Counted from the whole stretch's first letter, positions 1,096-22,805 are shown. The stretch is DNA of 23,896 bases, filler included, from an uncultured virus (IMG/VR IMGVR_UViG_2124908030_000002) (4 parts of one record of this genome joined end to end with filler, not necessarily neighbours in it), one strand, 5' to 3'. A program made the numbers and translations. The notes: generated by a model from the sequence alone, not told the origin.

Positions 1096-1155
1096 TGATA
1101 CAACATGACTGNNNNNNNNNNNNNNNNNNNNNNNNNNNNNNNNNNNNNNNNNNNN

Positions 1156-4058: not shown

Positions 4059-4399
4059 CGTGCTAAAGGAGAGTCTTTCATCCCTCTTTTAATTTCCCGT
4101 GTCATTTTTGCCATTTCTATCTGTTCTTCAAGGGGGAGCGAAACGAGGTTCACCGACTCCCCGGATTCAAGCAGGTACATTCTCTCCCCGACTATCTCGG
4201 AGAAGAACCAAACCAGTATGGACTCTGGCCGCGTGGTGTAGACCCGCTCTCCTTCAATCTTCACGGCGAACATGGTGTTCGCATCTTCGTACTCGGAACC
4301 GAACGCAGTAAACTCTACGTCGGTTCTATCGATTCCTTCGGGGACAACAACTACATGAAGGCCCCAATCGTGGTCGTAGCTGAAGCTGATGTCACTCAT
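4055..4399 (-). CDS. hypothetical protein (114 aa)
   Basis: Acidic ORF with overlapping start and stop. Confidence 0.75.
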   Translation of the reverse strand: MSDISFSYDHDWGLHVVVVPEGIDRTDVEFTAFGSEYEDANTMFAVKIEGERVYTTRPESILVWFFSEIVGERMYLLESGESVNLVSLPLEEQIEMAKMTREIKRGMKDSPLAR

Positions 4400-4847
4400 T
4401 ATGCCTTTGGTCGTGTGCTATTGCTATCGCAGCGGCAAGAATACCGCCCATTACGGAGAAAAATATTCCGTAAACAAAGGAGCCGAGAATCTTTGTTGCG
4501 GTAATGCCTGTCACATCAGCATAGATAAATGGCAACGAAGCACCGAACAGGATAAGAGGGACCGCATACAGGGCAATCCCTACCATCTTCCGGCGCGTCG
4601 TCCACCACTCACGGAGGTACTTTCTCTTCTGGCGTATCTCAAGTGCCCTACGCAGACTTACACAGCCTTCACACAACTGTTTTTCATCTGTTAGTGTTCT
4701 TGTCTCTGTGTCTGGCATACCAGCACCTTCCATATACCCTATTGTATTAATCTCGTCTTCGGTGACAATTTCTCCGCAGTGTTCACACTTGTACCGTATC
4801 TTTTCAACCTCTCTCGTCTCGAAGTCGGTGACGGTTACTTGGGTCAT
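4392..4847 (-). CDS. zinc-finger membrane protein
   Basis: CEHC...CEGC followed by two hydrophobic segments (MVGIALYAVPLILFGASLPFIY; ILGSFVYGIFFSVMGGILAAAIAIA); ATGA overlap at 4844-4847. Confidence 0.75.
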   Translation of the reverse strand: MTQVTVTDFETREVEKIRYKCEHCGEIVTEDEINTIGYMEGAGMPDTETRTLTDEKQLCEGCVSLRRALEIRQKRKYLREWWTTRRKMVGIALYAVPLILFGASLPFIYADVTGITATKILGSFVYGIFFSVMGGILAAAIAIAHDQRHNE

Positions 4848-5296
4848 GGCTCGTAGTGAAGCTCCCATACTCCGTGAGAGATTATCGCTTCCCCGTCTTG
4901 CTGGTCGGGGTCGATGTGTATCTCTGCTTCTCCGGCGTGGTACATCTCTTCTATCTCTATGACTATTCTTTCTACCGGGTCGGGTACTTCATCCCACTCG
5001 GTTATCTCTGGTAGCTCTACTTCTACATCGTCAGCAAGGATTAGACGACTATACTCAAACCGATAACTGCGCGTCTCTTCGCACTCTGCCCCGTATCCAT
5101 AGAACGTTTCGTCGTGCTTTTTCGAGTGGGTCGCTGACGTTACTTCAGCCCATCTACACTCTTCACGGAAGATTGCCGCTCCGTCTTCCATGATTGGGCT
5201 GTCTTCTGTTGGCCTCCACTCGTGGTCGTGAGTGTTTATCGGGTCGGGGTCTGGCGGGGAAGTCGGCGGCCCCGAGAATCCTCTACGTCCCATCAT
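4844..5296 (-). CDS. hypothetical protein (150 aa)
   Basis: Acidic ORF; its 5' part recurs at 6311-6476. Confidence 0.75.
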   Translation of the reverse strand: MMGRRGFSGPPTSPPDPDPINTHDHEWRPTEDSPIMEDGAAIFREECRWAEVTSATHSKKHDETFYGYGAECEETRSYRFEYSRLILADDVEVELPEITEWDEVPDPVERIVIEIEEMYHAGEAEIHIDPDQQDGEAIISHGVWELHYEP

Positions 5297-5510
5297 CTAT
5301 CACATCGACCGGAAGAACAGTCCCCCCGATAGTTGATTCCACACCAGTATCGTACTCGTACTGTACCTCGATGCTGCCGTTACGAGCTAGGTGAATGAAC
5401 CGAAGCTCTGTAACACTACCTTCTGTCCGGTCTGCGTCTTTGACGACGTGCCTTTCACCGTTGTTCAGTTGGCGCACTATCTTTTGTCTCCGTGGTTTTT
5501 TCTCGTTCAT
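5283..5510 (-). CDS. hypothetical protein (75 aa)
   Basis: ORF conserved in both copies of the block. Confidence 0.75.
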   Translation of the reverse strand: MNEKKPRRQKIVRQLNNGERHVVKDADRTEGSVTELRFIHLARNGSIEVQYEYDTGVESTIGGTVLPVDVIDDGT

Positions 5511-5920
5511 TTGATGTAATCCCGAAGGTTCTCAAGTCCCGCTTCTCCAAGCCCCGACACGTCCAGCAGCTCGTCGTCTTCGGCCTGCTGGATGTCGAGC
5601 TTCGTCTCGAAGCCGTTGCGATGAAGCTTGTACGCGGTCTTCTTACCCACGAACTTCACCTCTGACCACTCTTCCGTCTCGGCGTCTATCAGGTCGAGGT
5701 CGGAGTCGGGAAGATGCTCGAAGTAGCCGGCTTCTACCTGATTCTCGAAGGCTTCTCGCTGCTCTATCCGGTGGGCGTTGCCGGACTTGCGGCCCGTCGT
5801 GTCGCTTCGGAGCAACACAACTCCCTCGTAAGCGAAGAGAATCTGGTACATCTCTCCGCGAGCCTCGTGCTTGTAAATCTGTCCAACTGCGGGTTCAACT
5901 GTGGAGTCTAGCTCACTCAT
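5507..5920 (-). CDS. helix-hairpin-helix domain protein (137 aa)
   Basis: Tandem HhH-like motifs VKFVGKKTAYKL and LLDVSGLGEAGLENL; start set from copy 2 (MSELDS). Confidence 0.75.
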   Translation of the reverse strand: MSELDSTVEPAVGQIYKHEARGEMYQILFAYEGVVLLRSDTTGRKSGNAHRIEQREAFENQVEAGYFEHLPDSDLDLIDAETEEWSEVKFVGKKTAYKLHRNGFETKLDIQQAEDDELLDVSGLGEAGLENLRDYIK

Positions 5921-6194
5921 CTCGTACCTCGTCTGCTGTCTTCTTTCCATCAACCACGTCAGCAAGCGTTCCAAGATACTCAACGACAGCACGGTTCTCC
6001 GCTTCGTCCTGCTTGGTGTGCTTACGCATCTCTTCTGCCAGCTGACGGGCCTCGTATGCGGTGTAGACCGCAGTTTTCTCACCGATGTCAACTTCCACCA
6101 ACCGCTCGTTGTCGGTGATGCCCACGGTGAGCGACCCGACCTTCCCGGTGAGAATAGCTGTGCTAACCTCTTTCTGAAGCTCTGTCTCGTACAT
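5913..6194 (-). CDS. hypothetical protein (93 aa)
   Basis: Acidic ORF; first gene downstream of hammerhead A. Confidence 0.75.
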   Translation of the reverse strand: MYETELQKEVSTAILTGKVGSLTVGITDNERLVEVDIGEKTAVYTAYEARQLAEEMRKHTKQDEAENRAVVEYLGTLADVVDGKKTADEVRDE

Positions 6195-6289: not shown

Positions 6290-6462
6290 NNNNNNNNNNN
6301 NNNNNNNNNGTGGCTGACGTTACTTCAGCCCATCTACACTCTTCACGGAAGATTGCCGCTCCGTCTTCCATGATTGGGCTGTCTTCTGTTGGCCTCCACT
6401 CGTGGTCGTGAGTGTTTATCGGGTCGGGGTCTGGCGGGGAAGTCGGCGGCCCCGAGAATCCT

Positions 6463-6690
6463 CTACGTCCCATCATCTATCACATCGACCGGAAGAACAG
6501 TCCCCCCGATAGTTGATTCCACACCAGTATCGTACTCGTACTGTACCTCGATGCTGCCGTTACGAGCTAGGTGAATGAACCGAAGCTCTGTAACACTACC
6601 TTCTGTCCGGTCTGCGTCTTTGACTACGTGCCGTTCACCGCTGTTCAGTTGGCGCACTATCTTTTGTCTCCGTGGTTTGTTCTCGTTCAT
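6463..6690 (-). CDS. hypothetical protein (variant of 5283-5510)
   Basis: Two amino-acid differences from copy 1. Confidence 0.75.
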   Translation of the reverse strand: MNENKPRRQKIVRQLNSGERHVVKDADRTEGSVTELRFIHLARNGSIEVQYEYDTGVESTIGGTVLPVDVIDDGT

Positions 6691-7100: not shown

Positions 7101-7423
7101 GAATCAAAGTCTACGTACTCTGCTTTGTCTGTGGTTATTTTGGTCCCCGTTTTTCGGACTTCGACTGTCTCTTCTACCTCTCGCGTCGAGAATGGCTTGA
7201 AGAAGACAGCAATAACTCCTTCATCTGTGAGCTTGTTTTCTGGCTGGACTGCTGAAATGAGGAACCCACACTCTAGAGCCTCTGCTCCGAGAGAGTGATG
7301 ATGGGGGAACCCATCTTCAGCAAACTCGATACAGCAACAAGTTCGGGTTCTAGTATCTTCTACCACAGTTCCGGACTGGTTCTCGAACGTATCTACCAGC
7401 TCGTAAAATTTTGATTTATTCAT
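7097..7423 (-). CDS. hypothetical protein (108 aa), present only in copy 2
   Basis: ORF overlaps both neighbours; more AT-rich codons. Confidence 0.75.
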   Translation of the reverse strand: MNKSKFYELVDTFENQSGTVVEDTRTRTCCCIEFAEDGFPHHHSLGAEALECGFLISAVQPENKLTDEGVIAVFFKPFSTREVEETVEVRKTGTKITTDKAEYVDFDS

Positions 7424-7535
7424 CTCTTACCTCGTCTGCTGTCTTCTTCCCATCAACCACGTCAGCAAGCGTTCCAAGATACTCAACGACAGCACGGTTC
7501 TCCGCTTCGTCCTGCTTGGTGTGCTTACGCATCTC
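7416..7535 (-). CDS. 3' part of the 93-aa protein (copy 2; 5' end in gap)
   Basis: EMRKHTKQ...EVRDE identical to 5913-6194. Confidence 0.75.
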   Translation of the reverse strand, partial: EMRKHTKQDEAENRAVVEYLGTLADVVDGKKTADEVRDE

Positions 7536-7555
7536 NNNNNNNNNNNNNNNNNNNN

Positions 7556-8289
7556 ACCTCGTCTTCGAGGTCCACATCCCCGACGTGACGGATGGTCTTC
7601 TTCTCGGTGATGCTCCTGATGGAGTTGTCACACCGGGTGTCCTGAGCGAAGCCCTCGAAGTACAGGGCTTGCGACCCGAAGAAGTCGTAGCCGGTCCTGA
7701 TACCGAGAACGAGCGGGTCGGTGCCGCTGTCGTCGTCGGTGTAGTCGATGTTGAAGGCATCGAAGAGGATGTCCATGTGGACTTCCCCGCCGCCCTTGTA
7801 CTGCCGAATCTCCCCGAACACATCGTCGCCGTAACCCTCGTCACGGATGGCCTCTTCGAGCGGTTCGTAGGCCGTCATGGGGTTGACGATGCTGTACGAC
7901 TTGCTCGGGACGTGCCAGAGCGCATCTTCGTTCGGAGTGTCGTCGGGGTTCAGCCACTCCCGAAGCTTGTCGGGGGAGTAGATGGACTGGAAGCGGTCAG
8001 TCTCAACGAAGACCGTCCGGTCGTTGACCCGGTGAAAGTCCACCCCGTCAGGTGCCCGGTTCCGAAGCGGCCCGTCGTTCAGGTTTTGGGCCACGTCTTC
8101 CGGCATCTTCCACGCGAGGCCGCCCTGCTCGGCCTGTTCTAACTCTCGAATCGCCGCTGCCATCGAGGTGTCGGGAGGGTTCTCGGCATCCATCCCGGCG
8201 ATGCTGGCCGCTGTGTCACCCATCTCGGTGTTGTTATGGGTGGTCAATCCTGCGAACTGCGTCGTCGTGTCGGCGGTGTTCTGGCGCAT
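7556..8289 (-). CDS. DUF932/DUF945-like phage protein (3' truncated by gap)
   Basis: PSKSYSIVNP, GYDFFGS and C-x-N...IRHVG pattern typical of the family. Confidence 0.6.
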
Positions 8290-8330
8290 GGTGTGTCTCG
8301 TTTTATATCATGGCGTCGAGGTGACGCTGA

Positions 8331-8371
8331 AAGGGCGGAGAGGAATCGAACCTCTCGGAACCACTCACCCT
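8331..8371 (-). ncRNA. mini-tRNA (t-element) 1
   Basis: AGGGUG-AGUGGUUCC-GAGAGG(UUCGAUU)CCUCUC-CGCCCU: 6-bp acceptor plus 6-bp T-stem with canonical T-loop; no D or anticodon arm. Confidence 0.8.
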
Positions 8372-8391
8372 AACATTCAAAGCCCTACGCC

Positions 8392-8619
8392 TTAAGTCTT
8401 TTCAGTATCAATCTCTTCGGGCAGAGGTATGATACCTCGCTCGTCGTAGTAGTCTAGGACTTTCAGAAGGTCTTCTTTGAAACGGTCTGATATGTACCCC
8501 TTGCCTAGTGCGTTGGAGAACGAACTTGCTGCTCGCCCGGAGCAGACAGAGAGGTTAGACTGTTTTATCCCTCGTTCCATTCTCATCTCGTCAATTTCTT
8601 CGATTGACTTGTCAGTCAT
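8392..8619 (-). CDS. XRE-like helix-turn-helix protein
   Basis: MRMERGIKQSNLSVCSGRAASSFSNALGKG fits an XRE/Cro HTH pattern. Confidence 0.65.
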   Translation of the reverse strand: MTDKSIEEIDEMRMERGIKQSNLSVCSGRAASSFSNALGKGYISDRFKEDLLKVLDYYDERGIIPLPEEIDTEKT

Positions 8620-9171
8620 CAGAGCGGAGGTACTTCTCTACCTCGGCGTCGTTCAGGGTTTGCTGGCCTCCGTCCGTCGCTGCCAGACGCTCACCCTGAT
8701 GGCTACCGTCGTAGTCATCGGCTACGTCAGCACTCTCGAAGACCATCTGTGCTATCGGATACCGTTCGGGGAACCGGACAGGGTTGACTGCCGAAGGAAC
8801 CCGGAGTAGCCCTTCGCCGTAGCCCTCGTAGCCTTGGTCCCACAGGGCAGAAGTAAGGTGGAGGCCGCACCGCATCAGTCGGGACCGGGGGTAGACCCTG
8901 CCGACGTACCCTTCGGGAATCTCTATCTTCTCGGCGTAGACGATGGGGTACGGCCCTTGAGGGAGCCGGTAGAAGCCGGTGTCTTTCGGCACAACCCTCG
9001 TTCTGTCCGGCTTCGAGTAGCCAAACTCCGTGAACCGGGCTGTCCTGACGACCGGAAGACTTCTCCAATTGTCAGGTCCACACCGTTCGGCTGAATCTGC
9101 TCTTCAGGGATGTCTCCGTCGTTCAGATGCTCTGCTACTAGACTGCCGGATGCTACTGCGTTGTCACTCAT
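8612..9171 (-). CDS. dcd: dCTP deaminase / trimeric dUTPase family protein (1-nt frameshift near 9040)
   Basis: QIQPNGVDLTI in one frame; PRSRLMRCGL, WDQGYEG and PIAQMVF in another; adding one base at GGACAG^CCC joins them. Confidence 0.9.
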
Positions 9172-9182
9172 TTTTGTGAATC

Positions 9183-9605
9183 CTACTGCGCGTTTATCCA
9201 GTCACTATACGTCGGGAACTTGTCTTCAAACCGCTCCTGATACGACTCGTTCAGGGCATGAATCTCGTCCAGTTCGTCACTCGACCAGCGGCCCGATTCG
9301 AGGGCCGGCCCTCGGTGGTGGAGGTGAGGCCACCCTGTCACGATGACTCGGTGTCCGTCTTCGTGGAAGCCGGCAACAAGGTAGTAGGCAACCCCCTTGC
9401 CCCATACCTTCCGGAAGCAAGCACACCCATCTCCGTTGTCACGGAGGTCGCCGTGATTGATGGTTTCCCTGATAACTTCCGGGGTCAGGTATCGCTCCGG
9501 TTCCTTCATCCGCTGAATGAAGTGTCGGAGTGGTGTGTAGAGTTGCGGCTGTTGTGGGTAATCGATGTCTCGGTACTCCCGGCTCCGGTCGATGGGAAGG
9601 TTCAT
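9183..9605 (-). CDS. DUF4258-like protein
   Basis: HFIQRMKE..RYLTPEVIRETINHG and HRVIVTGW. Confidence 0.55.
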   Translation of the reverse strand: MNLPIDRSREYRDIDYPQQPQLYTPLRHFIQRMKEPERYLTPEVIRETINHGDLRDNGDGCACFRKVWGKGVAYYLVAGFHEDGHRVIVTGWPHLHHRGPALESGRWSSDELDEIHALNESYQERFEDKFPTYSDWINAQ

Positions 9606-9614
9606 GGCATCATC

Positions 9615-9878
9615 TTAGTCCTGCGAGATGACCGTCGCTCCGGGGTCGAACATGGCTCGTCCGATGAGGAACTGCGCGACCTTATAGCCGTCAACTTCTC
9701 CGGGGGAGAAGTAAACGAGAGAGTCAACGCTCTTGACTGTCCCGTCGTCGTACTCAATCCTCGCAACTTCCGGCGTCTCCTTCAGCTCCGTGTTCGGATT
9801 GTTTGAAGGAGAAGTCGTGTCGATGTGGACCGTAGACCGGGTGTCGTACCACATCGAGAGGTGACTGACTTCAGCCAT
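9615..9878 (-). CDS. hypothetical protein (87 aa)
   Basis: Acidic ORF with TGATG overlap. Confidence 0.7.
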   Translation of the reverse strand: MAEVSHLSMWYDTRSTVHIDTTSPSNNPNTELKETPEVARIEYDDGTVKSVDSLVYFSPGEVDGYKVAQFLIGRAMFDPGATVISQD

Positions 9879-10390
9879 CAGTTGGCACCTCCCACATAAT
9901 GGGAAACTGAACTTTGGGCAATCCCAAGGACGTTACTAATCTCGGTCTGAGGTAGGTCTTCGTTGTGGTAAAGTTCCATCATCAATAGCTCGTCGGTGAA
10001 GGTCGTTTTCTTTTGATGGTGCGCCCGGTGTTCACCCTCTCCCATCAGCTTGATGTTCGAGGGGCGGTTGTCCCACGGAAGCTCGTTCTGGTGGTGAACA
10101 TCTTTGCCCACTACTGCGTCGAACCCAAACTCACAGACCGCAAGAAGCCTGTGGTGGAAAAAATGGCTGCCGTCAACGTTGAACATCTCGTACCCATCAC
10201 TACTGACATGAAGGGACGGGTGGCCGTACTGGTTGCGAGCAGCTTCCTTCGGACTGCGGGTTTCGACCCCTGCGTCAGCCATCCACCGGGCAACGGTCTT
10301 GCTGACCACATCGCATTTTTCACCGATTTCTGCTTGTGTCATCCCTTCGTCATGGTACAGCCGACGAAGCTCCGACTCTTCAAGAGGCAT
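9878..10390 (-). CDS. HNH homing-type endonuclease with flanking HTH motifs
   Basis: HHRLLA...DVHHQNELPWDNRPSNI...EHRAHH; HTH-like segments at both ends (MTQAEIGEKCDV; LPQTEISNVLGIAQSSVS). Confidence 0.88.
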   Translation of the reverse strand: MPLEESELRRLYHDEGMTQAEIGEKCDVVSKTVARWMADAGVETRSPKEAARNQYGHPSLHVSSDGYEMFNVDGSHFFHHRLLAVCEFGFDAVVGKDVHHQNELPWDNRPSNIKLMGEGEHRAHHQKKTTFTDELLMMELYHNEDLPQTEISNVLGIAQSSVSHYVGGAN

Positions 10391-10521
10391 TACTCTTCAC
10401 CCCCCTGTCGCCAACTCACCGCTGAGTAGAATCTACCCATTATAGCACCGAGGTCGTCAGTTTCGTATGTTTGGCGCAACGTCTCAACGTGTCCGTCATC
10501 GCTAAATTCTACTGATTCCAT
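10390..10521 (-). CDS. hypothetical protein (43 aa)
   Basis: MESVEFSDDG...; TAATG overlap with the HNH gene; first ATG after hammerhead B. Confidence 0.6.
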   Translation of the reverse strand: MESVEFSDDGHVETLRQTYETDDLGAIMGRFYSAVSWRQGGEE

Positions 10522-10538
10522 GATGTCTTTGGTCTGAA

Positions 10539-10606
10539 CGGTCTGGCTCGTCAGGGAGATGGCGACCAGCACACCTCCGACGAGGGGCGACCCCTCGTTT
10601 CGCCGT
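10539..10606 (-). ncRNA. type II hammerhead ribozyme B
   Basis: GGC-GAAA-CGAGGGG(UCG)CCCCUCG-UC^-GGAGGUG(UGCUGGUCGC)CAUCUCC-CUGACGA-GCC-AGACCG; predicted cut at 10579/10578. Confidence 0.92.
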
Positions 10607-10631
10607 TGACTTGAAGCTCGGGCTTTGAGTC

Positions 10632-11546
10632 CTAGTCCTGAATCTCAGCCTCGATACTGTCGCGGTTCTCACCGATAACCCGGCGCGTCTCCTGAGCTAT
10701 CGGGGCAGAGTTGGCTGCGTCCTCGATGTCTTCTCGTAGGTAGAAGAACTCCTGAATGGCTTCTACGGCTTCGTCACCAGCGAGGGCCGGGGCGGAGACA
10801 CCATGCTCGTCAGCCACCGTCGAGATGGCTGAGAGGACGGTGCTACCGTCGCTGAACAGGGTCCAGACACGCTGAAGAACATCGGGGGAGACACGGGACA
10901 GAGCATCGAAGTCGTCACCGTGGAACACATCTGCTGCGATGTAGGGGAAGAAGTCCATCAGCATGGCCAGCTCGTTCACTCCGCAGTGACAATAGGGGCA
11001 GAAGTCCATCTGGTCGGCGAAGGCATCGGTCACGTCGAAGCCGGCTCGGATGTCGTGCTTGTGGTCAGGGTGGGAGTGACCGAGGCCGCACTCTTCAACC
11101 GGACACTCGAACCGGGAGACTCGGGTGTCGCTGACAACGGAACGAGCATCCTGAAGCACGTCCATCACGTCGTCGTCAATCTCCGAGTCGATGTCACCCA
11201 TGACCCCATCGATGGAGTCCACGAGGTTCTGGCTGTTCTCGGACTGAAGCGCGCTGTGGCTGCCGAGCGTCCACATCGAACCCACGGTGTCGAAGCTGTT
11301 GGTGTCGTCCTGTGCGTCGTCGTCGGCGGCGATGAAGTCGTAGTTCATGTTGGTGGTGTCGTCGTCGCTGTCTTCCGCACTGTTCTCGTCGTGTCTCGTT
11401 CTGAAGACTGTTTCTGAAAGGTAATGTCGCTCCTCGATGGAGTAGGCCACGTTGTTTGACCGAAGGGCGGCGGCCACCTCTTTGTGGTCAAACACGTCAA
11501 TCAACTCACCAGTATGCCGGTTAACTACCTTGTATTCCGTTGGCAT
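10632..11546 (-). CDS. acidic Cys/His-rich hypothetical protein (304 aa)
   Basis: CPVEECGLGHSHPDHKH and CPYCHC clusters. Confidence 0.8.
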   Translation of the reverse strand: MPTEYKVVNRHTGELIDVFDHKEVAAALRSNNVAYSIEERHYLSETVFRTRHDENSAEDSDDDTTNMNYDFIAADDDAQDDTNSFDTVGSMWTLGSHSALQSENSQNLVDSIDGVMGDIDSEIDDDVMDVLQDARSVVSDTRVSRFECPVEECGLGHSHPDHKHDIRAGFDVTDAFADQMDFCPYCHCGVNELAMLMDFFPYIAADVFHGDDFDALSRVSPDVLQRVWTLFSDGSTVLSAISTVADEHGVSAPALAGDEAVEAIQEFFYLREDIEDAANSAPIAQETRRVIGENRDSIEAEIQD

Positions 11547-11592
11547 GGGTTGTGTCCCGTCACTTGTATCGTTGCGCCACGGGGGGCGCTGA

Positions 11593-11634
11593 TGGCTAGG
11601 AGAGGAATCGAACCCCTCGCTGCCCTGTCTAGCT
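11593..11634 (-). ncRNA. mini-tRNA (t-element) 2
   Basis: AGCUAG-ACAGGGCAGC-GAGGGG(UUCGAUU)CCUCUC-CUAGCC-A; acceptor stem covaries relative to element 1. Confidence 0.8.
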
Positions 11635-11662
11635 AAAGACTAGAGGCCGAGTCACTTAAGTC

Positions 11663-11902
11663 TTATTTATTACGCCGGAGCTTAATCCGTTCCGGAATAT
11701 CTTTCTCGACTTTTTTCGGCTTTACTACGACGTGCCAACCTCCAATTAGAAGGCGTTGTCTTTCTCCGCCCTGCCACTCAAGCCCGTCGTTTTGGAACAG
11801 GTGTTCACCGGCCCGCTTCGCTTGTTCTTTGGTCGCAAAGATGTGATTATAACGTACTCTGTGCTTTCCGTCTTCTTTGTAGGTAAGTTCCCAAAGTTCC
11901 AT
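11663..11902 (-). CDS. hypothetical basic protein (79 aa)
   Basis: MELWELTYKE...; ATG 2 nt after the upstream stop. Confidence 0.7.
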   Translation of the reverse strand: MELWELTYKEDGKHRVRYNHIFATKEQAKRAGEHLFQNDGLEWQGGERQRLLIGGWHVVVKPKKVEKDIPERIKLRRNK

Positions 11903-11904
11903 GT

Positions 11905-12594
11905 TTAGCTCCTGTCCGGGGTGTTCTCGACAAGCCAGACGGCCTTGCCGATGAACTTCATCTCCTTGTTGGTGAGCCGGTAGCTCTCTCCGTTTGTGGT
12001 AATGTCTCTGTCCATGTCTTCGGTCAGGGTGGCGGCCCGAAGGCCGTAGGCTTGAACCGAAGACCCCTCGGCGACGACGCCGTTGCCTTGTCGCTTCCGG
12101 CTGTCGGTACTCGGGTGGTAGATTTCTGCCTCGAACGTCAGCAGAACGTGACCGTTGATGAGCCACCCGTCGTCTCTGACTTCGACCCGCTCCGATAAGG
12201 CCTCGGCGAAGATGTCCAGCACATCTCCACGGACCATGCCGGCTCTGATGTCGTCGTAGAGGGTGACGAGCGCCTTCACGGTGTCACCATCATGTTCCTC
12301 GTACATCTTTGCCATAGCTTCCACCAAGTCCGTCTTGTGGTGTTCCCCGAGGGTCAGGTCGGGGCAGTCTTCAAGCCGGAGAGTGTAGCACTCCGACTCC
12401 GGGTCGGGGATGATGGTAACGTCTTTCTCCCCGTCAACGCTCTTCATCCATATCTCGTCGCCGTATTCCAGAAGCCCGAACAGGTCGTGACCGTAGAGCA
12501 GCTGGTTCAGGTCCGAACACTTTGTCTTCGTCTCGGTTCCACCGTCAGGTGTGGCTATGAGCCACGAGGTCGGTGTCTCGTCTATTACGTTCAT
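11905..12594 (-). CDS. hypothetical protein (229 aa)
   Basis: Acidic ORF starting MNVIDET with ATGA overlap. Confidence 0.8.
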   Translation of the reverse strand: MNVIDETPTSWLIATPDGGTETKTKCSDLNQLLYGHDLFGLLEYGDEIWMKSVDGEKDVTIIPDPESECYTLRLEDCPDLTLGEHHKTDLVEAMAKMYEEHDGDTVKALVTLYDDIRAGMVRGDVLDIFAEALSERVEVRDDGWLINGHVLLTFEAEIYHPSTDSRKRQGNGVVAEGSSVQAYGLRAATLTEDMDRDITTNGESYRLTNKEMKFIGKAVWLVENTPDRS

Positions 12595-12782: not shown

Positions 12783-15573
12783 GACACTCCTCCTTTGTCA
12801 GCTCTGATGGGTCGATGCCTTTCTCGTGGAAGCCGAGAAGCATCTGGCCTGTCCATGTATCTCGGCGGTGGTTATCATCGAACAAATCGTACACGTCGCT
12901 GTCGTCATCCCAATTTGGGGTGTCAGCCATCAGCCGGTAGCGTTTCGAGCTGCCTTCCAGATGACCATCTTTGAGCGACGGCTTGTGGTTGGGACTGTAG
13001 CGAGTCAACCGTGCGATGATGATGCTTGCCTGATGTATCCTTGACCCCACACCGTCCGTCTTGATGTTCTTGAAGGCCCACCGCGCTCTTTTCAGCACTT
13101 TGTCACAGACAACAGCGAAGAGGGTGTCGTGCTTGTCGTCGTCGGGAACGTTGCCTTTGTCGTCGCTACGGTAGCCGCCGTCGTAGTCATCGAGTAGTTT
13201 GGCCCACTCAATCTGGTCACGGAAGTCTTCGGCGTAGAAGTTCCGGAGCTTTTCAAAGTCATCTCCGAGCAGCTTCACTACTTCGCGGTCATCACTCGGC
13301 CGGTGAGCCATAACCACCATCCGGTCGTCGTCGTACAGCTCTTCAGGAGTCATGGCACCGTCTTCTGTGGCTATTAGTGCTGACGAGGACCACTCGGTGT
13401 ATTCCATGTAAGTGACTACATCATCATAGTCTTCAAGCTCGGACAGTTGAGACTTTGTGACGCAGACAATAGCGGCGTAGTATGCCATGTCGTAGTGGTC
13501 GCTGATGTTCGGGCCGTCGCCCTGAGTGAAGACCATCAACGTGTCTTTGCCGTGGAAGTTGCCGTGCCCTTCCAGCTTTCGCTTCACCTCTTTCATGGTG
13601 AGCCGCTGGTCGATGGAGCTACTATCGGAGCTGGTGCGGAGCTTCAGCTTGTCCGGGTCTTTCTTCTTCGTTGTCTTCGTGTGCTTCTGGTGGATGTCGT
13701 TCGGAACATCCCAACTGTGGTCGTCGTCCTGCTTGACAGGAACGTTCTTCACGACGTTGAAACCGAAGGCATCACCCCAAGCATCGTACTTGCTGGCACC
13801 GTTGATTTTGATTACCTCTGCGTCAGGGTTGTTGTGGCGAAGGACTTTGAAGCGGTCGGTGAAGTTACCGCCTGTCGAAGCTGCCATGTAGACGTTATCG
13901 CAGTCTTCTATGTCTGTCAGGAACGCCCCTAGTCTCTTACTCTTCCGGTTCCGACTGCTGCTAGACCGACCGGGGCCGTTGTAGCAGTACTCAATTTCTG
14001 AGAACAGAGCGTACATCTGGTTCAGAGTATCGTCAGATGTTACGTCGAAGTGGTCGTCGCCTGAGATGAAGTTACGGAACTTCCTTCGTTTTTCTGTCGC
14101 CTTGTACGGGCCGTGCTTTGACACCATCTTCGAGAAGATTTTCCACGAGCTTCTGTCACCGATAAGGGCGCTGCCGGGGTGACTGCCCGACTTCATCTCT
14201 TCTACGACAGCCCGGAGCTGTTTCTTCTCTTCTTCGATGGCCAACGACTGAACGTACTCGAAGAACTGTTTCTGCTCGGAGTCTTTCTTCAGGCTGTCAC
14301 GGGAGCCGGTAGGCTGCGGGAGCATCACGTCGTCGTCGTGTAGCTCCCCGATGACGTTGTTTTTCTCGTTCGTCTCGAAGAGTCGCTGTCCGTCAGAGTA
14401 CCGGCCCCGGTTCGGCCCGTGAACAATCCGGCCTTGTTCGTCCTGAATCTGAATCACTTCGTCCCACAGGGTGCTGAACCGGACTGATGTGTTCCGGTCA
14501 ATAGCCATCGACACCATGAAGGTGTCTTCGTCGTCGGCATGGTAGCCGGTGTCAATAACATCAGGACCGGAGACGAGGGAAAACTCACCGGGACGCTCAA
14601 CCACAATCGGTGGGTCGCCGTACTCTTCAACGAAGTTGCTGGCCTCGTACTCTTCTTCGACCGGGGTGGTCCCGGCGTCGTGTTCTCGGTAGAGAAGCGG
14701 GACACGAAGTTGCTCGGTGTAGTCTTCGACCCATGACTGAAGCTTCGAGAGACTGAACGAATCTTGAACCGGCATCGAGAACCGGGTGCCGTAGAAGTTT
14801 TCTTCTACCTCACCACAGAGTGCGTTAGCACCACCGAGGTAGGAGTAAGCCCGGAAGCCGGGGTGGTCGCCGGGCTGCCGGCTTCGGGTGTCAATTTCTG
14901 CTCCGGCTCCATGCTTGCCGTGAACTAGGGCCGACGACTCTGAACCGATACCGAACATCCCACCGGAGCCGCCGTCAACACCGGAGCCGGACTGGAAGAT
15001 GGTGTTGAAGGCGTCGTCAAACTGTGCCGGGGTCATGCCGATGCCGTTGTCTTCGGTGACTATCTTCCGCTCATCGAGGTACACATCCCACACTATCGTC
15101 GGGTCGTAACCGAGGTTCCGTGAAGCTTCAAGGACTTCATCGATGGGCCGGGGAATCTCTATCCGGCGGAAGTCTGACGGGTCGCTGTCGCCATCATCGA
15201 GCGCGTTCTCGGCGACAGTCTCCCCGGTTTCAGCATCGACCAGAAGGCTCTGTGTGAGCCACCCGTCGTCGTACCGTTCGGAGAGCTGAATCAGGAGCTT
15301 CGAGGCTCGGAAGCAGGCAGCTTCCTCGTTCTGAAGCCACTCTCGAACCCATGCCGAGTCATGCTCGTAGATGAAGTCAGACAGGAACTCTCCGGCACCG
15401 CTCTCTGTCTGTGTCTTCAGGGCTTCGTCACCCGTCTCTTGAACGAGAGGGTGGTCTTCGCCAGCCACACCGAGCTGCTTCACGTCGTTGGTGTCGGGGC
15501 CTGAAAGGACAGGGGGAACGGAAGGGTCACGGCTCTGTTCGTCGGTCGTCGGAAGGTCGATGTTCTCACTCAT
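12769..15573 (-). CDS. GHKL (Hsp90/MutL-type) ATPase-domain protein, rIIA-like architecture
   Basis: Bergerat-fold motifs REWLQN, EDNGIGM, GGMFGIG and GTRF in the N-terminal third, followed by a long unassigned C-terminal region. Confidence 0.85.
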   Translation of the reverse strand: MSENIDLPTTDEQSRDPSVPPVLSGPDTNDVKQLGVAGEDHPLVQETGDEALKTQTESGAGEFLSDFIYEHDSAWVREWLQNEEAACFRASKLLIQLSERYDDGWLTQSLLVDAETGETVAENALDDGDSDPSDFRRIEIPRPIDEVLEASRNLGYDPTIVWDVYLDERKIVTEDNGIGMTPAQFDDAFNTIFQSGSGVDGGSGGMFGIGSESSALVHGKHGAGAEIDTRSRQPGDHPGFRAYSYLGGANALCGEVEENFYGTRFSMPVQDSFSLSKLQSWVEDYTEQLRVPLLYREHDAGTTPVEEEYEASNFVEEYGDPPIVVERPGEFSLVSGPDVIDTGYHADDEDTFMVSMAIDRNTSVRFSTLWDEVIQIQDEQGRIVHGPNRGRYSDGQRLFETNEKNNVIGELHDDDVMLPQPTGSRDSLKKDSEQKQFFEYVQSLAIEEEKKQLRAVVEEMKSGSHPGSALIGDRSSWKIFSKMVSKHGPYKATEKRRKFRNFISGDDHFDVTSDDTLNQMYALFSEIEYCYNGPGRSSSSRNRKSKRLGAFLTDIEDCDNVYMAASTGGNFTDRFKVLRHNNPDAEVIKINGASKYDAWGDAFGFNVVKNVPVKQDDDHSWDVPNDIHQKHTKTTKKKDPDKLKLRTSSDSSSIDQRLTMKEVKRKLEGHGNFHGKDTLMVFTQGDGPNISDHYDMAYYAAIVCVTKSQLSELEDYDDVVTYMEYTEWSSSALIATEDGAMTPEELYDDDRMVVMAHRPSDDREVVKLLGDDFEKLRNFYAEDFRDQIEWAKLLDDYDGGYRSDDKGNVPDDDKHDTLFAVVCDKVLKRARWAFKNIKTDGVGSRIHQASIIIARLTRYSPNHKPSLKDGHLEGSSKRYRLMADTPNWDDDSDVYDLFDDNHRRDTWTGQMLLGFHEKGIDPSELTKEECRDFL

Positions 15574-15713
15574 CTGAGGTCAACAAGGTCGGTTGTTTTC
15601 ATGTCGCTGCTGATGAAGGCTCTCGGGTTGCCTTCTTCCTGAACGCTGTATCTGCTCGAATACTCACTCCACGTTACTTGTGGGGACAGCTCTGGTGGGT
15701 TCTCTTCGTTCAT
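15570..15713 (-). CDS. hypothetical protein (47 aa)
   Basis: MNEENPPELSPQVTWSEY...; ATGA overlaps at both ends; conserved in copy 2. Confidence 0.7.
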   Translation of the reverse strand: MNEENPPELSPQVTWSEYSSRYSVQEEGNPRAFISSDMKTTDLVDLR

Positions 15714-16232
15714 ATTCCGTAGTCTATCGCCGGGTTGTCTTCTATACACCGTCTTGTGNNNNNNNNNNNNNNNNNNNNNNNNNNNNNNNNNNNNNNNNNN
15801 NNNNNNNNNNNNNNNNNNNNNNNNNNNNNNNNNNNNNNNNNNNNNNNNNNNNNNNNNNNNNNNNNNNNNNNNNNNNNNNNNNNNNNNNNNNNNNNNNNNN
15901 NNNNNNNNNNNNNNNNNNNNNNNNNNNNNNNNNNNNNNNNNNNNNNNNNNNNNNNNNNNNNNNNNNNNNNNNNNNNNNNNNNNNNNNNNNNNNNNNNNNN
16001 NNNNNNNNNNNNNNNNNNNNNNNNNNNNNNNNNNNNNNNNNNNNNNNNNNNNNNNNNNNNNNNNNNNNNNNNNNNNNNNNNNNNNNNNNNNNNNNNNNNN
16101 NNNNNNNNNNNNNNNNNNNNNNNNNNNNNNNNNNNNNNNNNNNNNNNNNNNNNNNNNNNNNNNNNNNNNNNNNNNNNNNNNNNNNNNNNNNNNNNNNNNN
16201 NNNNNNNNNNNNNNNNNNNNNNNNNNNNNNNN

Positions 16233-16903
16233 CCCGGAGCCATGCTTGCCGTGAACGAGGGCTGCGACTCTGAGCAGACACCGAACATCCCACCGGAGCC
16301 ACCGTCAACACCGGAGCCAGAGCTGAAGATGGTGTTGAAGGCTTCGTCAAACTCACGAGGAGTCATGCCGATGCCGTTGTCTTCGGTGACTATCTTCCGC
16401 TCATCGAGGTACACATCCCACACTATCGTCGGGTCGTAACCGAGGTTTCGTGAGGCTTCGAGGACTTCATCGATGGGCCGGGGAATCTCTATCTGGCGGA
16501 AGTCTGACGGGTCGCTGTCGCCATCATCGAGCGCGTTCTCGGCGACAGTCTCCCCGGTTTCAGCATCGACCAGAAGGCTCTGTGTGAGCCACCCGTCGTC
16601 GTACCTCTCGGAGAGCTGAATCAGGAGCTTCGAGGCTCGGAAGCAAGCAGATTCCTCGTTCTGAAGCCACTCTCGAACCCATGCCGAGTCATGCTCGTAG
16701 ATGAAGTCAGCCAGAAACTCTCCGGCACCGCTCTCTGTCTGAGTCTTCAGGGCTTCGTCACCCGTCTCTTGAACGAGGGGGTGGTCTTCGCCAGCCACAC
16801 CGAGCTGCTTCACGTCGTTGGTGTCGGGGCCTGAAAGGACTGGGGGAGCGGAATGGTCACGGCTCTGTTCGTCGGTCGTCGGAAGGTCGATGTTCTCACT
16901 CAT
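16233..16903 (-). CDS. GHKL ATPase protein, second variant (3' part in gap)
   Basis: Near-identical to 14903-15573 (offset 1330), with synonymous and a few non-synonymous changes. Confidence 0.85.
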
Positions 16904-17040
16904 CTGAGGTCAACAAGGTCGGTTGTTTTCATGTCGCTGCTGATGAAGGCTCTCGGGTTGCCTTCCTCCTGAACGCTGTATCTGCTCGAATACTCACTCC
17001 ACGTTACTTGTGGGGACAACTCTGGGGTTTCTTCTGTCAT
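16900..17040 (-). CDS. hypothetical protein (46 aa; variant of 15570-15713)
   Basis: MTEETPELSPQVTWSEY...; its ATG lies in the 3' tail of hammerhead C. Confidence 0.7.
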   Translation of the reverse strand: MTEETPELSPQVTWSEYSSRYSVQEEGNPRAFISSDMKTTDLVDLR

Positions 17041-17097
17041 GCTCATCAGGGAAGGGACGACACTCCCTCCCGACAGGGCCGGTCCCTGTTTCGCCAT
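17035..17097 (-). ncRNA. type II hammerhead ribozyme C
   Basis: AUGGC-GAAA-CAGGG(ACCGG)CCCUG-UC^-GGGAGGGA(GUGUCG)UCCCUUCC-CUGAUGA-GC-AUGACA; predicted cut at 17072/17071. Confidence 0.92.
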
Positions 17098-18116: not shown

Positions 18117-18285
18117 TTTCTTCAGCCTCCTCTGCCGCAATCTCCACCAGCTCCTTCAGTTCATCCTGAGCATCTTCGAGCCGCTGAAGCTCTTCTCGTG
18201 GAAGGGAGTTCCACAAGATGGACAGCCCTTCGATGTATTCGTTCCACCGTTCTTCAAATTCTTCGCGGTTATCTGCTTGGGGCAT
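18109..18285 (-). CDS. hypothetical acidic helical protein (58 aa)
   Basis: MPQADNREE...; TAATG overlap. Confidence 0.7.
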   Translation of the reverse strand: MPQADNREEFEERWNEYIEGLSILWNSLPREELQRLEDAQDELKELVEIAAEEAEENE

Positions 18286-18806
18286 TAGAATCCTTCTCCG
18301 TCGATGTTTGCCATCCGCTGCGACTCTGTTTGCCACTCGCTCCGTGACTGAACCATCCTACTTCCTCCGTTAATGTTAGTGAAGGTGAAGGTCAGGGCCT
18401 CCATGTTAGTTTCTTCATCGTCCATCATCGGCCCTCCGTCAGCTTCTCCCCAAGCAATCTTTATGCCGTTCTCGTCTCCGGTAAGGCTGAACAGCTCCGC
18501 GAAAGCCATGAAGTTTGATGCTTCAGTCCACGTCAGGAAGAAGTGGTCGATGCCCACACTTCGCCGGTCCTTTGTTGTCTTCGTCATACGAACACCGTAG
18601 ATGGTGGTCTTGACTCTGGCGTTGACGTTTTCCTCGGGGTTCTCGGGTTCAACCGAGAAGTAGCAGCGAAGCGTCTGGTTCTCTGCGTCGTGAACCAGAT
18701 GGATGTAGTCACCGACGCCCTCTGATTCGAGGTTGACCCACTCACTAAGCGGGACTCTATCTACTACGTTATGCCCGTCGTCTTCGGCGTTCATGGTTTC
18801 ACTCAT
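18285..18806 (-). CDS. hypothetical protein (173 aa)
   Basis: MSETMNAED...; first gene after orphan RNA motif copy 1. Confidence 0.8.
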   Translation of the reverse strand: MSETMNAEDDGHNVVDRVPLSEWVNLESEGVGDYIHLVHDAENQTLRCYFSVEPENPEENVNARVKTTIYGVRMTKTTKDRRSVGIDHFFLTWTEASNFMAFAELFSLTGDENGIKIAWGEADGGPMMDDEETNMEALTFTFTNINGGSRMVQSRSEWQTESQRMANIDGEGF

Positions 18807-18825
18807 GGTTTCTCCGTTCCGCTGT

Positions 18826-18882
18826 CGCACCGCAGAGGGTAGTTCGGTCATGAGCCGAGGGGTCGTCAACCACCTACCCTAA
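18826..18882 (-). ncRNA. unassigned repeated structured RNA motif, copy 1
   Basis: AGGGUAG-GUGG(UUGACGA)CCC-CUCGG(CUCAUGA)CCGAA-CUACCCU-CUGCGGUGCG; homologous to 20712-20769. Confidence 0.7.
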
Positions 18883-18900
18883 CAATAGAAGCCTGTTGAC

Positions 18901-22705: not shown

Positions 22706-22749
22706 NNNNNNNNNNNNNNNNNNNNNNNNNNNNNNNNNNNNNNNNNNNN

Positions 22750-22761: not shown

Positions 22762-22805
22762 NNNNNNNNNNNNNNNNNNNNNNNNNNNNNNNNNNNNNNN
22801 NNNNN

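What the first reader, a model, noticed from the sequence alone, without database searches (positions are those of the whole stretch)
8331..11634. Two ~41-nt mini-tRNAs (acceptor stem + T-arm only) between genes
Seen: both have a 6-position acceptor stem stacked on a 6-bp stem with the T-loop UUCGAUU, giving 12 positions like the 7+5 top half of a tRNA. A 9-10 nt linker containing GG could mimic D-loop G18G19. The acceptor stems differ but stay paired (AGGGUG/CGCCCU versus AGCUAG/CUAGCC). There is no anticodon, so they cannot decode. Established: a tRNA-like 't-element' directs tRNase Z processing of 5S rRNA in Haloferax. Inference: these are viral t-elements that recruit host RNase P/RNase Z to cut mRNA; released minihelices might also act as decoys for tRNA-targeting defence nucleases.
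Basis: partly seen in the sequence, partly recalled or inferred. Interest (0 to 1): 0.82.

Follow-up and report, generated by a model that had tools for sequence, protein, structure and literature searches.

The report
Mini-tRNA cutting signals in a halovirus
Two 40-base RNA folds that copy only the top half of a tRNA sit just in front of two genes of a virus of salt-loving archaea; they belong to a large, unnamed family found in many viruses and most likely tell the host's tRNA-trimming enzymes where to cut the virus's long messenger RNAs.

Summary
Two anticodon-less mini-tRNAs lie on the minus (coding) strand at 8332-8371 (E1) and 11594-11634 (E2). Each has an acceptor-like stem stacked on a 6-bp T stem with loop UUCGAUU, joined by a 9-10 nt linker containing GG. 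They are not chance. A structural descriptor finds 2 in the window against 0.13 in shuffles. The orthologous gene leaders in related haloviruses carry the same fold with different stem sequences. Across 27 distinct copies from 12 viral records, 94% of stem cells pair. G.U occurs 6 times and A.C never, so the fold is a sense-strand RNA. No Rfam family and no paper found describes them. The family reaches other haloviruses (HF2, HSTV-2, HRTV-27) and many lower-GC viral contigs, at least one of them a Clostridia-type phage. The best reading (about 0.55) is a viral t-element: host tRNase Z and/or RNase P cut polycistronic mRNA there, leaving a hairpin-capped leader on the next gene. No cleavage has been shown. 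The one mapped 5' end, in HF2, falls inside such an element. The att-remnant reading is rejected and the decoy idea has no support. It is a new variant of a known kind.

The parts
8332..8371 (-). E1 mini-tRNA: 6-position acceptor-like stem, 9-nt GG linker, 6-bp T stem, loop UUCGAUU
   Evidence: Sequence. Descriptor hit. Model R1 scores 45.8 bits, E about 1e-10. Orthologous to G002:29194-29236, whose downstream protein is 74% identical.
11594..11634 (-). E2 mini-tRNA: A.C plus a 5-bp acceptor-like stem, 10-nt GG linker, 6-bp T stem (one G.U), loop UUCGAUU
   Evidence: Sequence. Descriptor hit. R1 scores 51.7 bits. Orthologous to G002:32090-32132, whose downstream protein is 48% identical.
8313..8327 (-). 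Hairpin 4 nt after E1 (5-bp stem GCGUC/GACGC, 5-nt loop)
   Evidence: Sequence. Part of the minimum-energy fold. A hairpin of >=5 bp starts within 8 nt in 21 of 27 family members, against 22% of shuffles.
11574..11589 (-). Hairpin 4 nt after E2 (5-bp stem GCGCC/GGCGC, 6-nt loop)
   Evidence: Sequence.. Stem columns are 91% paired in 9 related leaders.
8391..8400 (-). AAGACTTAAG motif 19 nt upstream of E1; it contains the stop codon of ORF 8392-8619
   Evidence: 2 exact copies in the window, both upstream of the elements. It resembles the 'alpha' motif of HF2 class I intergenic repeats, CTAAAGACTTAGAA (PMC8707807).
11636..11664 (-). AAGACTTAAG motif (11655-11664) and its inverted partner AGTCTT (11636-11641), directly upstream of E2
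   Evidence: The same arrangement occurs in G001-G003. In those genomes the motif occurs 4-6 times each, with or without a mini-tRNA.
11547..11561 (-). Conserved pre-start motif GACGGGACACAACCC abutting the ATG of ORF 10632-11546; its 5' part is complementary to the loop of the E2 hairpin
   Evidence: The pseudoknot pairing is 85% paired in 9 leaders, with both-side changes at 2 of 5 pairs.
8290..8299 (-). Weaker copy of the pre-start motif (GAGACACACC) abutting the ATG of ORF 7525-8289
10632..11546 (-). Gene led by E2 (304 aa, no Pfam family), homologue of HSTV-2 gene 90
7525..8289 (-). Gene led by E1 (254 aa as read; cut short by the N run at 7536-7555), homologue of HSTV-2 gene 83

Best explanation
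E1 and E2 are viral t-elements. They are transcribed as parts of longer sense-strand RNAs and fold into the top half of a tRNA: an acceptor-like stem stacked on the T arm gives 12 stacked positions, and a D-loop-like GG linker can dock on the T loop. That is the part of a tRNA that the host tRNA-processing enzymes read.

Host tRNase Z would cut one base after the 3' strand, between 8331/8330 and between 11593/11592. RNase P may cut at the 5' border, before 8371 and before 11634. The cuts would separate the upstream message from the downstream one. The downstream mRNA would begin a few bases before a small GC hairpin, which should protect the new 5'-phosphate end, and would run into a conserved pre-start motif and the ATG.

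Shown: the fold, its conservation and covariation, its strand, and its fixed place between co-directional genes. Inferred: cotranscription, cleavage, the enzymes involved, and the protective role of the hairpin.
For: 1. Real structure. In 9 hand-picked copies, 90.6% of cells pair against 53.8% in shuffles (0 of 500), and the covariation score is 0.97 against 0.20. In 27 distinct model hits from 12 records, 94.4% pair against 55.5% (0 of 500), while slid controls give 38-56%.

2. Sense-strand RNA. In the 11 core pairs there are 6 G.U/U.G and 0 A.C/C.A. Within each record all copies lie on one strand.

3. tRNA mimicry.
- The T loop is UUCGANU and matches GGTTCRANYCC, the motif used to find plant-mitochondrial t-elements (PMC1920247 passages).
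- The linker begins with A in most copies and always holds GG.
- The outermost position is a standard pair in 11 of 27 copies and A.C in 13 of 27, which gives 12 stacked positions.

4. Position. An upstream ORF ends within -3 to +60 nt of the element in 22 of 24 copies. A downstream ORF starts within 66 nt in 19 of 24. In HRTV-27 three of four copies start at the stop codon itself, leaving no room for a separate promoter.

5. Synteny with stem replacement. The HSTV-2 homologues of both downstream genes carry a similar element just upstream. So do the G002 homologues.

6. Equivalence with true tRNAs. HSTV-2 tRNA-Gln sits 24 nt before gene 69, followed by the same leader motif that follows a mini-tRNA elsewhere in that genome. 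In HF2, promoters IR2 and IR3 drive tRNAs followed by protein genes.

7. Need for processing. HF2 makes transcripts of up to 35 kb, while Northern blots show 0.5-9 kb, and the authors propose processing (PMC8707807). A type II hammerhead ribozyme also sits between genes here and in HF2.

8. Precedent in the host group. Haloferax t-elements are cut by RNase P and tRNase Z in vivo and leave 5'-phosphate/3'-OH ends (PMC4326828; PMC4946936).
Against: - No RNA ends or cleavage data exist for any member.
- The only mapped 5' end near a member is HF2 'TSS T-4384' (primer extension; PMC8707807). It falls on the invariant linker G of the HF2 element at 4375-4414. It is not at either border predicted for RNase P or tRNase Z. 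If it is a true start, transcripts from that promoter lack the 5' strand of the stem.
- Helix length varies: 11-13 positions in the halovirus set and 11-14 in the wider set. That is looser than a strict 12-bp ruler.
- The E2 minimum-energy fold prefers a competing pairing by 5.5 kcal/mol. Fold z-scores are not significant.
- The HSTV-2 elements at the two orthologous sites have loop UUCACGA, 14-nt linkers and low model scores (9.8 bits for one of them). They are less tRNA-like.
- Many copies were found with searches that demand parts of the fold, so pairing percentages are partly by construction.
- I could not compare the elements with the Haloferax 5S t-element itself.
Confidence: 0.55

Rival explanations
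1. Promoter-proximal leader element. Transcription starts inside or at the element (at the invariant linker G). The conserved fold acts in the 5' leader, or across the start site, as a stabiliser or a binding site for a regulator, not as a cutting signal.
For: - The HF2 5' end 'T-4384' maps to the invariant linker G.
- In the window and in G001-G003 a promoter-like motif (AAGACTTAA, related to the HF2 alpha motif) lies 19-21 nt upstream of the element.
- A third copy, AAGAGTTAAG, lies 30 nt before the ATG at 18869 with no mini-tRNA.
Against: - A transcript starting at that G lacks the 5' strand, yet that strand covaries perfectly with its partner.
- HRTV-27 and phage-type copies start at or next to the upstream stop codon with no promoter motif.
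- The AAGACTTAA motif occurs 4-6 times per related genome and mostly without a mini-tRNA, so the two are separate modules.
- The AT-rich hexamer lies at -33 to -28 of T-4384, whereas the paper places the TATA box of class I repeats at -26.
- Primer extension cannot tell a primary end from a processed one or from a reverse-transcriptase stop.
Confidence: 0.2
2. tRNA top-half mimic that binds a tRNA-recognising factor rather than being cut. Candidates are a decoy or sponge for tRNA-targeting defence nucleases, a substrate of CCA-adding or modification enzymes, or a ribosome- or factor-recruiting element for the gene that follows.
For: - The conserved parts (12 stacked positions, T loop, GG linker) are those read by many tRNA-binding proteins. 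This rests on established knowledge, recalled rather than tested here.
- The element always sits 10-66 nt before a start codon.
- HF2 encodes an RtcB RNA ligase, which hints at RNA damage and repair during infection.
Against: There is no anticodon arm, which is the usual target of anticodon nucleases. There are only one to four copies per genome. Nothing in the sequences points to a particular partner. The idea was not tested.
Confidence: 0.12
3. Decayed tRNA genes, or attP/att remnants of integration into host tRNA genes.
For: The T arm is tRNA-like. HF2 does carry a truncated tRNA-like attP next to its integrase, but at another locus (PMC8707807).
Against: - There are two copies per genome with different stems, and each stem is kept paired by compensating changes.
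- The same compact design recurs in unrelated viruses.
- Of 21 exact matches to the 21-mer class in one genome per species, none is in Halobacteria. The 6 that share the exact E1 or E2 tail are tRNAs of non-halophile metagenome-assembled genomes.
- No integrase domain was found in the 26 window ORFs scanned.
Confidence: 0.03
4. DNA-level element: a cruciform or a protein-binding palindrome.
For: The stems are inverted repeats. The neighbouring AAGACT...AGTCTT arms are nearly invariant, as a protein site would be.
Against: There are 6 G.U and 0 A.C in the core pairs. The loop and linker are conserved in a strand-specific way. The stem sequences vary freely.
Confidence: 0.02

Closest known systems
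Haloferax volcanii t-element: the tRNA-like 'mini-tRNA' directly upstream of 5S rRNA (Hoelzle et al. 2008 and 2012, seen only as cited in PMC4326828; the 2008 paper is not held)
   Same: It occurs in the haloarchaeal host group. It is a tRNA-like fold without decoding function, placed directly 5' of the RNA whose end it defines. It is cut by tRNase Z and RNase P, leaving a 5'-phosphate on the downstream RNA.
   Different: It is a cellular element in an rRNA operon and present as a single locus. Here the elements are viral, lie in front of protein genes, occur in several copies per genome and are followed by a conserved hairpin.
Plant-mitochondrial t-elements (Forner et al. 2007, PMC1920247; passages read)
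   Same: They are tRNA-like structures with a conserved T arm (GGTTCRANYCC) in mRNA leaders and trailers. Their borders coincide with mapped mRNA 5' and 3' ends. They are read as RNase Z/RNase P signals, and the released elements carry non-encoded C/A additions.
   Different: They are organellar and about 74 nt long, with a non-canonical cloverleaf. The viral elements are about 40 nt with no D stem and no anticodon arm.
tRNA punctuation of polycistronic transcripts (mitochondria) and tRNA-mRNA co-transcripts in HF2 (IR2-tRNA-Arg-gene 235; IR3-tRNA-Asn/Tyr-gene 270)
   Same: A tRNA-shaped unit lies between or in front of protein genes on the same transcript, and processing frees the neighbours.
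   Different: Those units are full tRNAs. Here only the top half is kept.
HF2 class I intergenic repeats (PMC8707807; results section, figure legends and passages read)
   Same: They share the AAGACTTA ('alpha') motif upstream of the window's elements. They are intergenic and belong to the same virus family.
   Different: The beta (TCTTTAAGTC) and gamma (CGTCTNNTAGAG) motifs are absent near E1 and E2. The paper has no occurrence of tRNase Z, RNase P or T-arm. In the parts I read it does not mention the folds at HF2 2906-2944 and 4375-4414.
Acceptor/T-arm minihelix model substrates of RNase P and tRNase Z, and mascRNA of MALAT1 (recalled, no call)
   Same: They have the same minimal architecture, known to suffice for recognition by tRNA end-processing enzymes.
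   Different: The minihelices are laboratory constructs and mascRNA is a eukaryotic nuclear RNA. The resemblance is recalled and was not tested here.

Membership tests
Canonical tRNA gene | Cloverleaf with D stem and anticodon arm | tested here: not met
   ARAGORN finds 0 genes in the window. Rfam has no tRNA-clan hit at E<=10. Only 9-10 nt lie between the 5' strand and the T stem.
Canonical tRNA gene | T arm with loop UUCRANY closed by G-C; acceptor and T stems stack to 12 bp | tested here: met
   The loop is UUCGAUU. The stems are 6+6 positions, with E2's outermost position an A.C mismatch.
t-element (tRNA-like processing signal) | Non-canonical tRNA-like fold that keeps the acceptor stem and a conserved T arm (GGTTCRANYCC) | tested here: met
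   GGTTCGATTCC is exact in both elements. The fold is supported by covariation.
t-element (tRNA-like processing signal) | Lies within a longer transcript, directly next to the RNA whose end it defines | tested here: inconclusive
   Position is met: the elements are intergenic, on the sense strand, and 42-47 nt before the next ATG. Cotranscription is inferred only.
t-element (tRNA-like processing signal) | Cut by tRNase Z and/or RNase P, with RNA ends mapping to its borders | not testable with these tools
   No RNA data exist. The one mapped end near a member (HF2 nt 4384) is inside the element, not at a border.
t-element (tRNA-like processing signal) | Likeness to the Haloferax 5S-leader t-element itself | not tested
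tRNA-derived attP / att remnant | Identity to the 3' end of a host tRNA gene | tested here: not met
   There are 21 exact matches to the 21-mer class in 185,579 species genomes, none of them in Halobacteria. Limits: one genome per species, and the host is unknown.
tRNA-derived attP / att remnant | Adjacent integrase; single copy | tested here: not met
   No integrase family was found in 26 of the window's 151 listed ORFs, namely those I judged likely genes. There are two copies with different stems.
HF2 class I intergenic repeat | Alpha, beta (TCTTTAAGTC) and gamma (CGTCTNNTAGAG) motifs in order | tested here: not met
   Only the alpha-like AAGACTTAAG is present. No beta or gamma match lies near E1 or E2.
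Any Rfam family | Match to a curated covariance model | tested here: not met
   The window gave no hit at the elements. Eight related loci, 24,099 bases, gave 0 hits at E<=1.

The most novel reading that the evidence does not exclude
The window's two elements are members of a pan-viral class of about 40-nt tRNA top-half mimics: acceptor stem, D-loop-like A..GG linker and T arm. Viruses of both archaea and bacteria place them between genes to borrow the universal tRNA end-processing enzymes (RNase P, RNase Z) as a mRNA punctuation system. This would be a viral counterpart of mitochondrial tRNA punctuation that has gone unannotated because tRNA finders and Rfam do not see it.
Probability: 0.4. 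Interest if true: 0.85.

Novelty: new variant of a known kind. Interest (0 to 1): 0.7.

Why it matters
How archaeal viruses turn very long primary transcripts into the shorter mRNAs seen on gels is unknown. The HF2 authors raise processing as an explanation (PMC8707807). A compact, easily recognised signal that recruits host tRNase Z/RNase P would give a concrete and testable mechanism. It would explain the conserved leaders in front of early and middle genes. It would also re-open the reading of at least one published 'transcription start' in HF2.

The same design turns up in many lower-GC viral contigs, which suggests an unannotated RNA class of wide reach. Because the Haloferax t-element is already used as a tool to release defined RNAs, short natural variants with different stems would also be useful parts.

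Tried and rejected
- The search for related loci with the 304-aa protein found no relative in viral contigs.
- The pattern GGGACACAACCNATG was too unspecific.
- blastn of the two elements with their leaders against phage records gave only short T-arm matches to unrelated phage tRNAs.
- Tandem Repeats Finder found nothing. An apparent 8-nt repeat family in the repeat finder is an artefact of N runs.
- No whole genome is held for the window.
- Earlier-findings look-ups by sequence and by place gave nothing.
- Of the 15 loci from the pattern AAGACTTAA..GGTTCGANTCC, 4 are halovirus elements and 1 (L128) is AT-rich and probably unrelated. Two of the other 10 are true tRNAs and 8 were not explained.
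- I considered that the linker G is an initiator nucleotide. I keep this as a rival rather than rejecting it.
- I considered that the HF2 end at 4384 is a reverse-transcriptase stop at a modified D-loop-like base. That is speculation without any test.
- The Hoelzle 2008 paper could not be read.
- The figures and supplements of PMC8707807 were not seen. They may bear on how T-4384 and its TATA box were assigned.


Full report
OBSERVATION. They lie on the minus strand, which is also the strand of the flanking ORFs.

- E1 runs 8371..8332. It has a 6-position stem (one U.G), a 9-nt linker, a 6-bp stem and the loop UUCGAUU. The two 3' strands are contiguous, so the two helices can stack.
- E2 runs 11634..11594. 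Its outer stem is 5 bp plus an outermost A.C mismatch, its linker is 10 nt, and its T stem has one G.U.
- E1 lies between ORF 8392-8619 and ORF 7525-8289. E2 lies between ORF 11663-12166 and ORF 10632-11546.
- ARAGORN calls no tRNA. Rfam in E-value mode reports nothing at either site.

CHANCE. A descriptor written for this architecture finds exactly these two sites in the window. The mean in 150 dinucleotide-preserving shuffles is 0.13, and none of the 150 reaches 2.

Folding energy is not what marks them. The z-scores are -0.55 and -0.78. The E1 minimum-energy fold in a 96-nt context is the mini-tRNA plus a following hairpin. The E2 minimum-energy fold uses a competing pairing that is 5.5 kcal/mol better than the mini-tRNA fold.

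WHAT THE WINDOW IS. The window is related to haloarchaeal tailed viruses of the family Hafunaviridae: HSTV-2, HRTV-7, HRTV-2/11 and HCTV-6/15, at about 74% DNA identity over parts (taxonomy line). No whole genome is held for it. It is a scaffold with N runs and duplicated gap flanks, none of them between 8331 and 11634.

RELATIVES AND COVARIATION.
- The gene after E1 is the homologue of HSTV-2 gene 83 (52% identity). The gene after E2 is the homologue of gene 90 (37%).
- Both HSTV-2 genes have a similar stem/T-hairpin element directly upstream, with unrelated stem sequences.
- The same descriptor finds 5 sites in 19 kb of HSTV-2, against 0.12 expected. All 5 are on the gene strand.
- Pattern scans of IMG/VR brought in three 71-73 kb contigs (G001-G003). 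Each carries two copies about 3 kb apart, as in the window.
- In G002 the genes that follow the two copies are 74% and 48% identical to the window's two genes, so the elements are orthologous. E1 and its orthologue differ only on the 3' strand and stay paired through G.U. E2 and its orthologue differ on both strands.
- An alignment of 9 copies pairs in 90.6% of cells, against 53.8% in shuffles (0 of 500).
- A covariance model built from that alignment (R1) finds only E1 and E2 in the window at E<0.1.
- Over 23 sources R1 finds 35 hits, 27 of them distinct, in 12 records. On these, 94.4% of cells pair against 55.5% in shuffles (0 of 500). Partners slid by 1-3 columns give 38-56%.
- In the 11 core pairs there are 6 G.U/U.G and no A.C/C.A. 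This points to an RNA read from the sense strand, not to a DNA palindrome.

Caveat: several copies were found by searches that require part of the fold, and the model alignment is fitted to the structure. The percentages are therefore partly by construction.

ANATOMY.
- The core is a 5-bp outer stem plus a 6-bp T stem.
- The next outer position is a standard pair in 11 of 27 copies and A opposite C in 13 of 27. That gives 12 stacked positions, the 7+5 of a tRNA.
- The linker starts with A in most copies and always contains GG. By recalled tRNA numbering this reads like a D loop (A14 ... G18 G19) that could dock on the T loop. No tool here tests that.
- A small hairpin of >=5 bp starts within 8 nt after the element in 21 of 27 copies, against 22% of shuffles. 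In the window these hairpins lie at 8313-8327 and 11574-11589.
- In the window's group the hairpin loop is complementary to the bases just before a conserved GGGACACAACC motif that abuts the ATG. In 9 leaders this pseudoknot pairing holds in 85% of cells, with both-side changes at 2 of 5 pairs. This is suggestive only, because I drew the structure from these same sequences.

UPSTREAM MOTIF. AAGACTTAAG lies 19-20 nt before both elements. In E2 and in G001-G003 it has an inverted partner, AGTCTT(A).

It resembles the 'alpha' motif of the HF2 class I intergenic repeats, which carry promoters (PMC8707807). The beta and gamma motifs of those repeats are absent here.

The motif occurs 4-6 times in each of G001-G003, mostly without a mini-tRNA. 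Mini-tRNAs also occur without it. The two are therefore separate modules.

WIDER FAMILY.
- HF2 itself has two copies, at 2906-2944 and 4375-4414. Both lie between genes and are followed by a hairpin.
- A 56.6-kb record is 99.6% identical, over the locus compared, to Halorubrum tailed virus 27. It has four copies, three of which begin at the stop codon of the upstream ORF.
- Two lower-GC fragments have three or four copies each. One of them encodes an amidoligase whose closest relatives are in gut Clostridia-type phages, and its copies precede Shine-Dalgarno-like sequences.
Of these, 92 have a T stem of >=5 bp.
- 45 of the 110 loci (44 under the stricter count), 44 distinct sequences, have the full architecture. 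When the 30 upstream bases are reversed or shuffled, the count falls to 2-3.
- None of those 45 loci holds an ARAGORN tRNA. GC ranges from 0.30 to 0.62. Their hosts were not determined.
- In that set the downstream hairpin is only weakly enriched: 17 of 44, against 22% of shuffles.
- Five such contigs hold one or two copies each.
- Eight related loci gave no Rfam hit at E<=1.

WHAT IS KNOWN.
- t-elements are tRNA-like structures that serve as cutting signals.
- In Haloferax volcanii one lies upstream of 5S rRNA and is cut by tRNase Z. When placed around a crRNA, t-elements are cut in vivo by RNase P and tRNase Z and leave 5'-phosphate/3'-OH ends (passages of PMC4326828 and PMC4946936). The primary paper is not held.
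- In plant mitochondria, t-elements found through GGTTCRANYCC coincide with mapped mRNA ends (PMC1920247).
- In HF2, promoters IR2 and IR3 are followed by true tRNAs and then protein genes. A type II hammerhead ribozyme is annotated between genes, and the window has one too (38.4 bits against a gathering score of 37).
- HF2 makes transcripts of up to 35 kb while Northern blots show 0.5-9 kb, and the authors suggest processing.
- In HSTV-2 a true tRNA-Gln and a mini-tRNA are each followed by the same leader motif before a gene.

MECHANISM. I commit to the t-element reading at about 0.55. The fold forms in read-through RNA. Host tRNase Z cuts after the base that follows the 3' strand. RNase P may cut at the 5' border. 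The downstream mRNA starts just before a protective hairpin.

The fold, its strand, its conservation and its place between genes are shown. Cotranscription, cleavage, the enzymes and the hairpin's role are inferred.

AGAINST. No member has RNA end data that fit this reading. The one mapped 5' end near a member, HF2 'T-4384' (primer extension on RNA of infected cells), falls on the invariant linker G of the HF2 element.

If that end is a primary start, the 5' strand is absent from that transcript. That would favour the rival of a promoter-proximal leader element (0.2). Two points weigh against the rival: the perfect covariation of that 5' strand, and the copies that abut stop codons with no promoter motif.

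Primer extension cannot separate primary ends from processed ends or from reverse-transcriptase stops. I did not see the figure or the supplements.

Other rivals:
- A factor-binding mimic or decoy (0.12; untested).
- A decayed tRNA or att remnant (0.03). Two differently stemmed copies, no Halobacteria match among 21 exact 21-mer hits, and no integrase in the 26 ORFs scanned all weigh against it.
- A DNA-level element (0.02; 6 G.U against 0 A.C).

NOVELTY. Five literature searches returned no paper that describes viral mini-tRNAs of this kind. The HF2 promoter paper has no occurrence of tRNase Z, RNase P or T-arm.

Earlier notes of this same scan report the same family in other halovirus windows and reach the same reading. 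They are unchecked AI notes and not independent evidence. One of them gave me the pseudoknot lead that I partly tested.

I rate this a new variant of a known kind (t-elements): viral, about 40 nt, multi-copy, with a hairpin-capped leader, and probably far more widespread than haloviruses.

Noticed in passing
window 17033-17096 (-): Type II hammerhead ribozyme. It scores 38.4 bits against a gathering score of 37 (E 1e-4) and matches the full model. It lies between ORFs on the gene strand. HF2 has an annotated counterpart at 10292-10359. This is a second RNA-cutting device between genes in the same virus group.
   Followed up: partly
window 1112-1155, 1168-1211, 2790-2833, 2846-2889, 6290-6309, 7536-7555, 15759-16232, 22706-22749, 22762-22805: N runs. 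Sequence flanking three of them is duplicated: 5130-5429 = 6310-6609 (100%), 5917-6032 ~ 7420-7535 (98%), and 14935-15234 ~ 16265-16564 (94%). The window looks like a scaffold with unmerged gap flanks. ORFs across these places are unreliable, for example 15710-16903 and the 3' end of 7525-8289. Three pairs of 44-N runs 12 nt apart are unexplained.
   Followed up: partly
window 11574-11589 with 11556-11560; related leaders in L152, L154-L157, L001: The loop of the hairpin after the mini-tRNA can pair with the bases just before the conserved GGGACACAACC-ATG motif, forming an H-type pseudoknot next to the start codon. In 9 leaders 85% of cells pair, and two pairs switch between G-C/U-A and A-U/C-G.
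   Followed up: partly
L137 (HF2, AF222060.2) 4375-4414 and 2906-2944: HF2 has two unannotated mini-tRNAs. The published 'TSS T-4384' falls on the invariant linker G of the first one. Its AT-rich hexamer lies at -33 to -28, not at the -26 reported for class I repeats. That end may deserve re-examination as a processed end.
   Followed up: partly
L001 (HSTV-2) 8813-8855, 11706-11752; L146 1501-1543: A second subtype has the loop UUCACGA (no A at the T-loop position 58 equivalent) and 14-17 nt linkers. It occupies the sites orthologous to E1 and E2 in HSTV-2. In two of the three copies listed here the stop codon of the upstream gene lies inside the element.
   Followed up: partly
IMG/VR loci L319-L428: A large lower-GC branch of the family has the linker consensus AAUGGUUGNA. 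Most sit just after a stop codon and 15-60 nt before a Shine-Dalgarno-like sequence and an ATG. Hosts were not determined.
   Followed up: partly
window 8612-8992 and 8923-9171 (-): A dCTP-deaminase-like gene is split into two overlapping ORFs (Pfam DCD, 1e-13 and 3.5e-4). This is either a frameshift or a sequencing error. HF2 has an intact dCTP deaminase.
   Followed up: no
window 9878-10390 (-): A 170-aa ORF between E1 and E2 has helix-turn-helix matches at both ends and a weak HNH_3 match. It may be a homing-endonuclease-like insert.
   Followed up: no
window 18900-18909 (-): A third copy of the promoter-like motif (AAGAGTTAAG) lies 30 nt before the ATG of ORF 18285-18869 with no mini-tRNA. 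This fits a promoter of a nearly leaderless transcript.
   Followed up: no
L158 (G003:50456-50497) and the 110 nt after it: A weaker mini-tRNA (32 bits; one extra base between the stems) is followed by two TAAGACTCAA motifs and by what looks like the start of another linker (AAGTGGCGGC). This may be a tandem arrangement.
   Followed up: no
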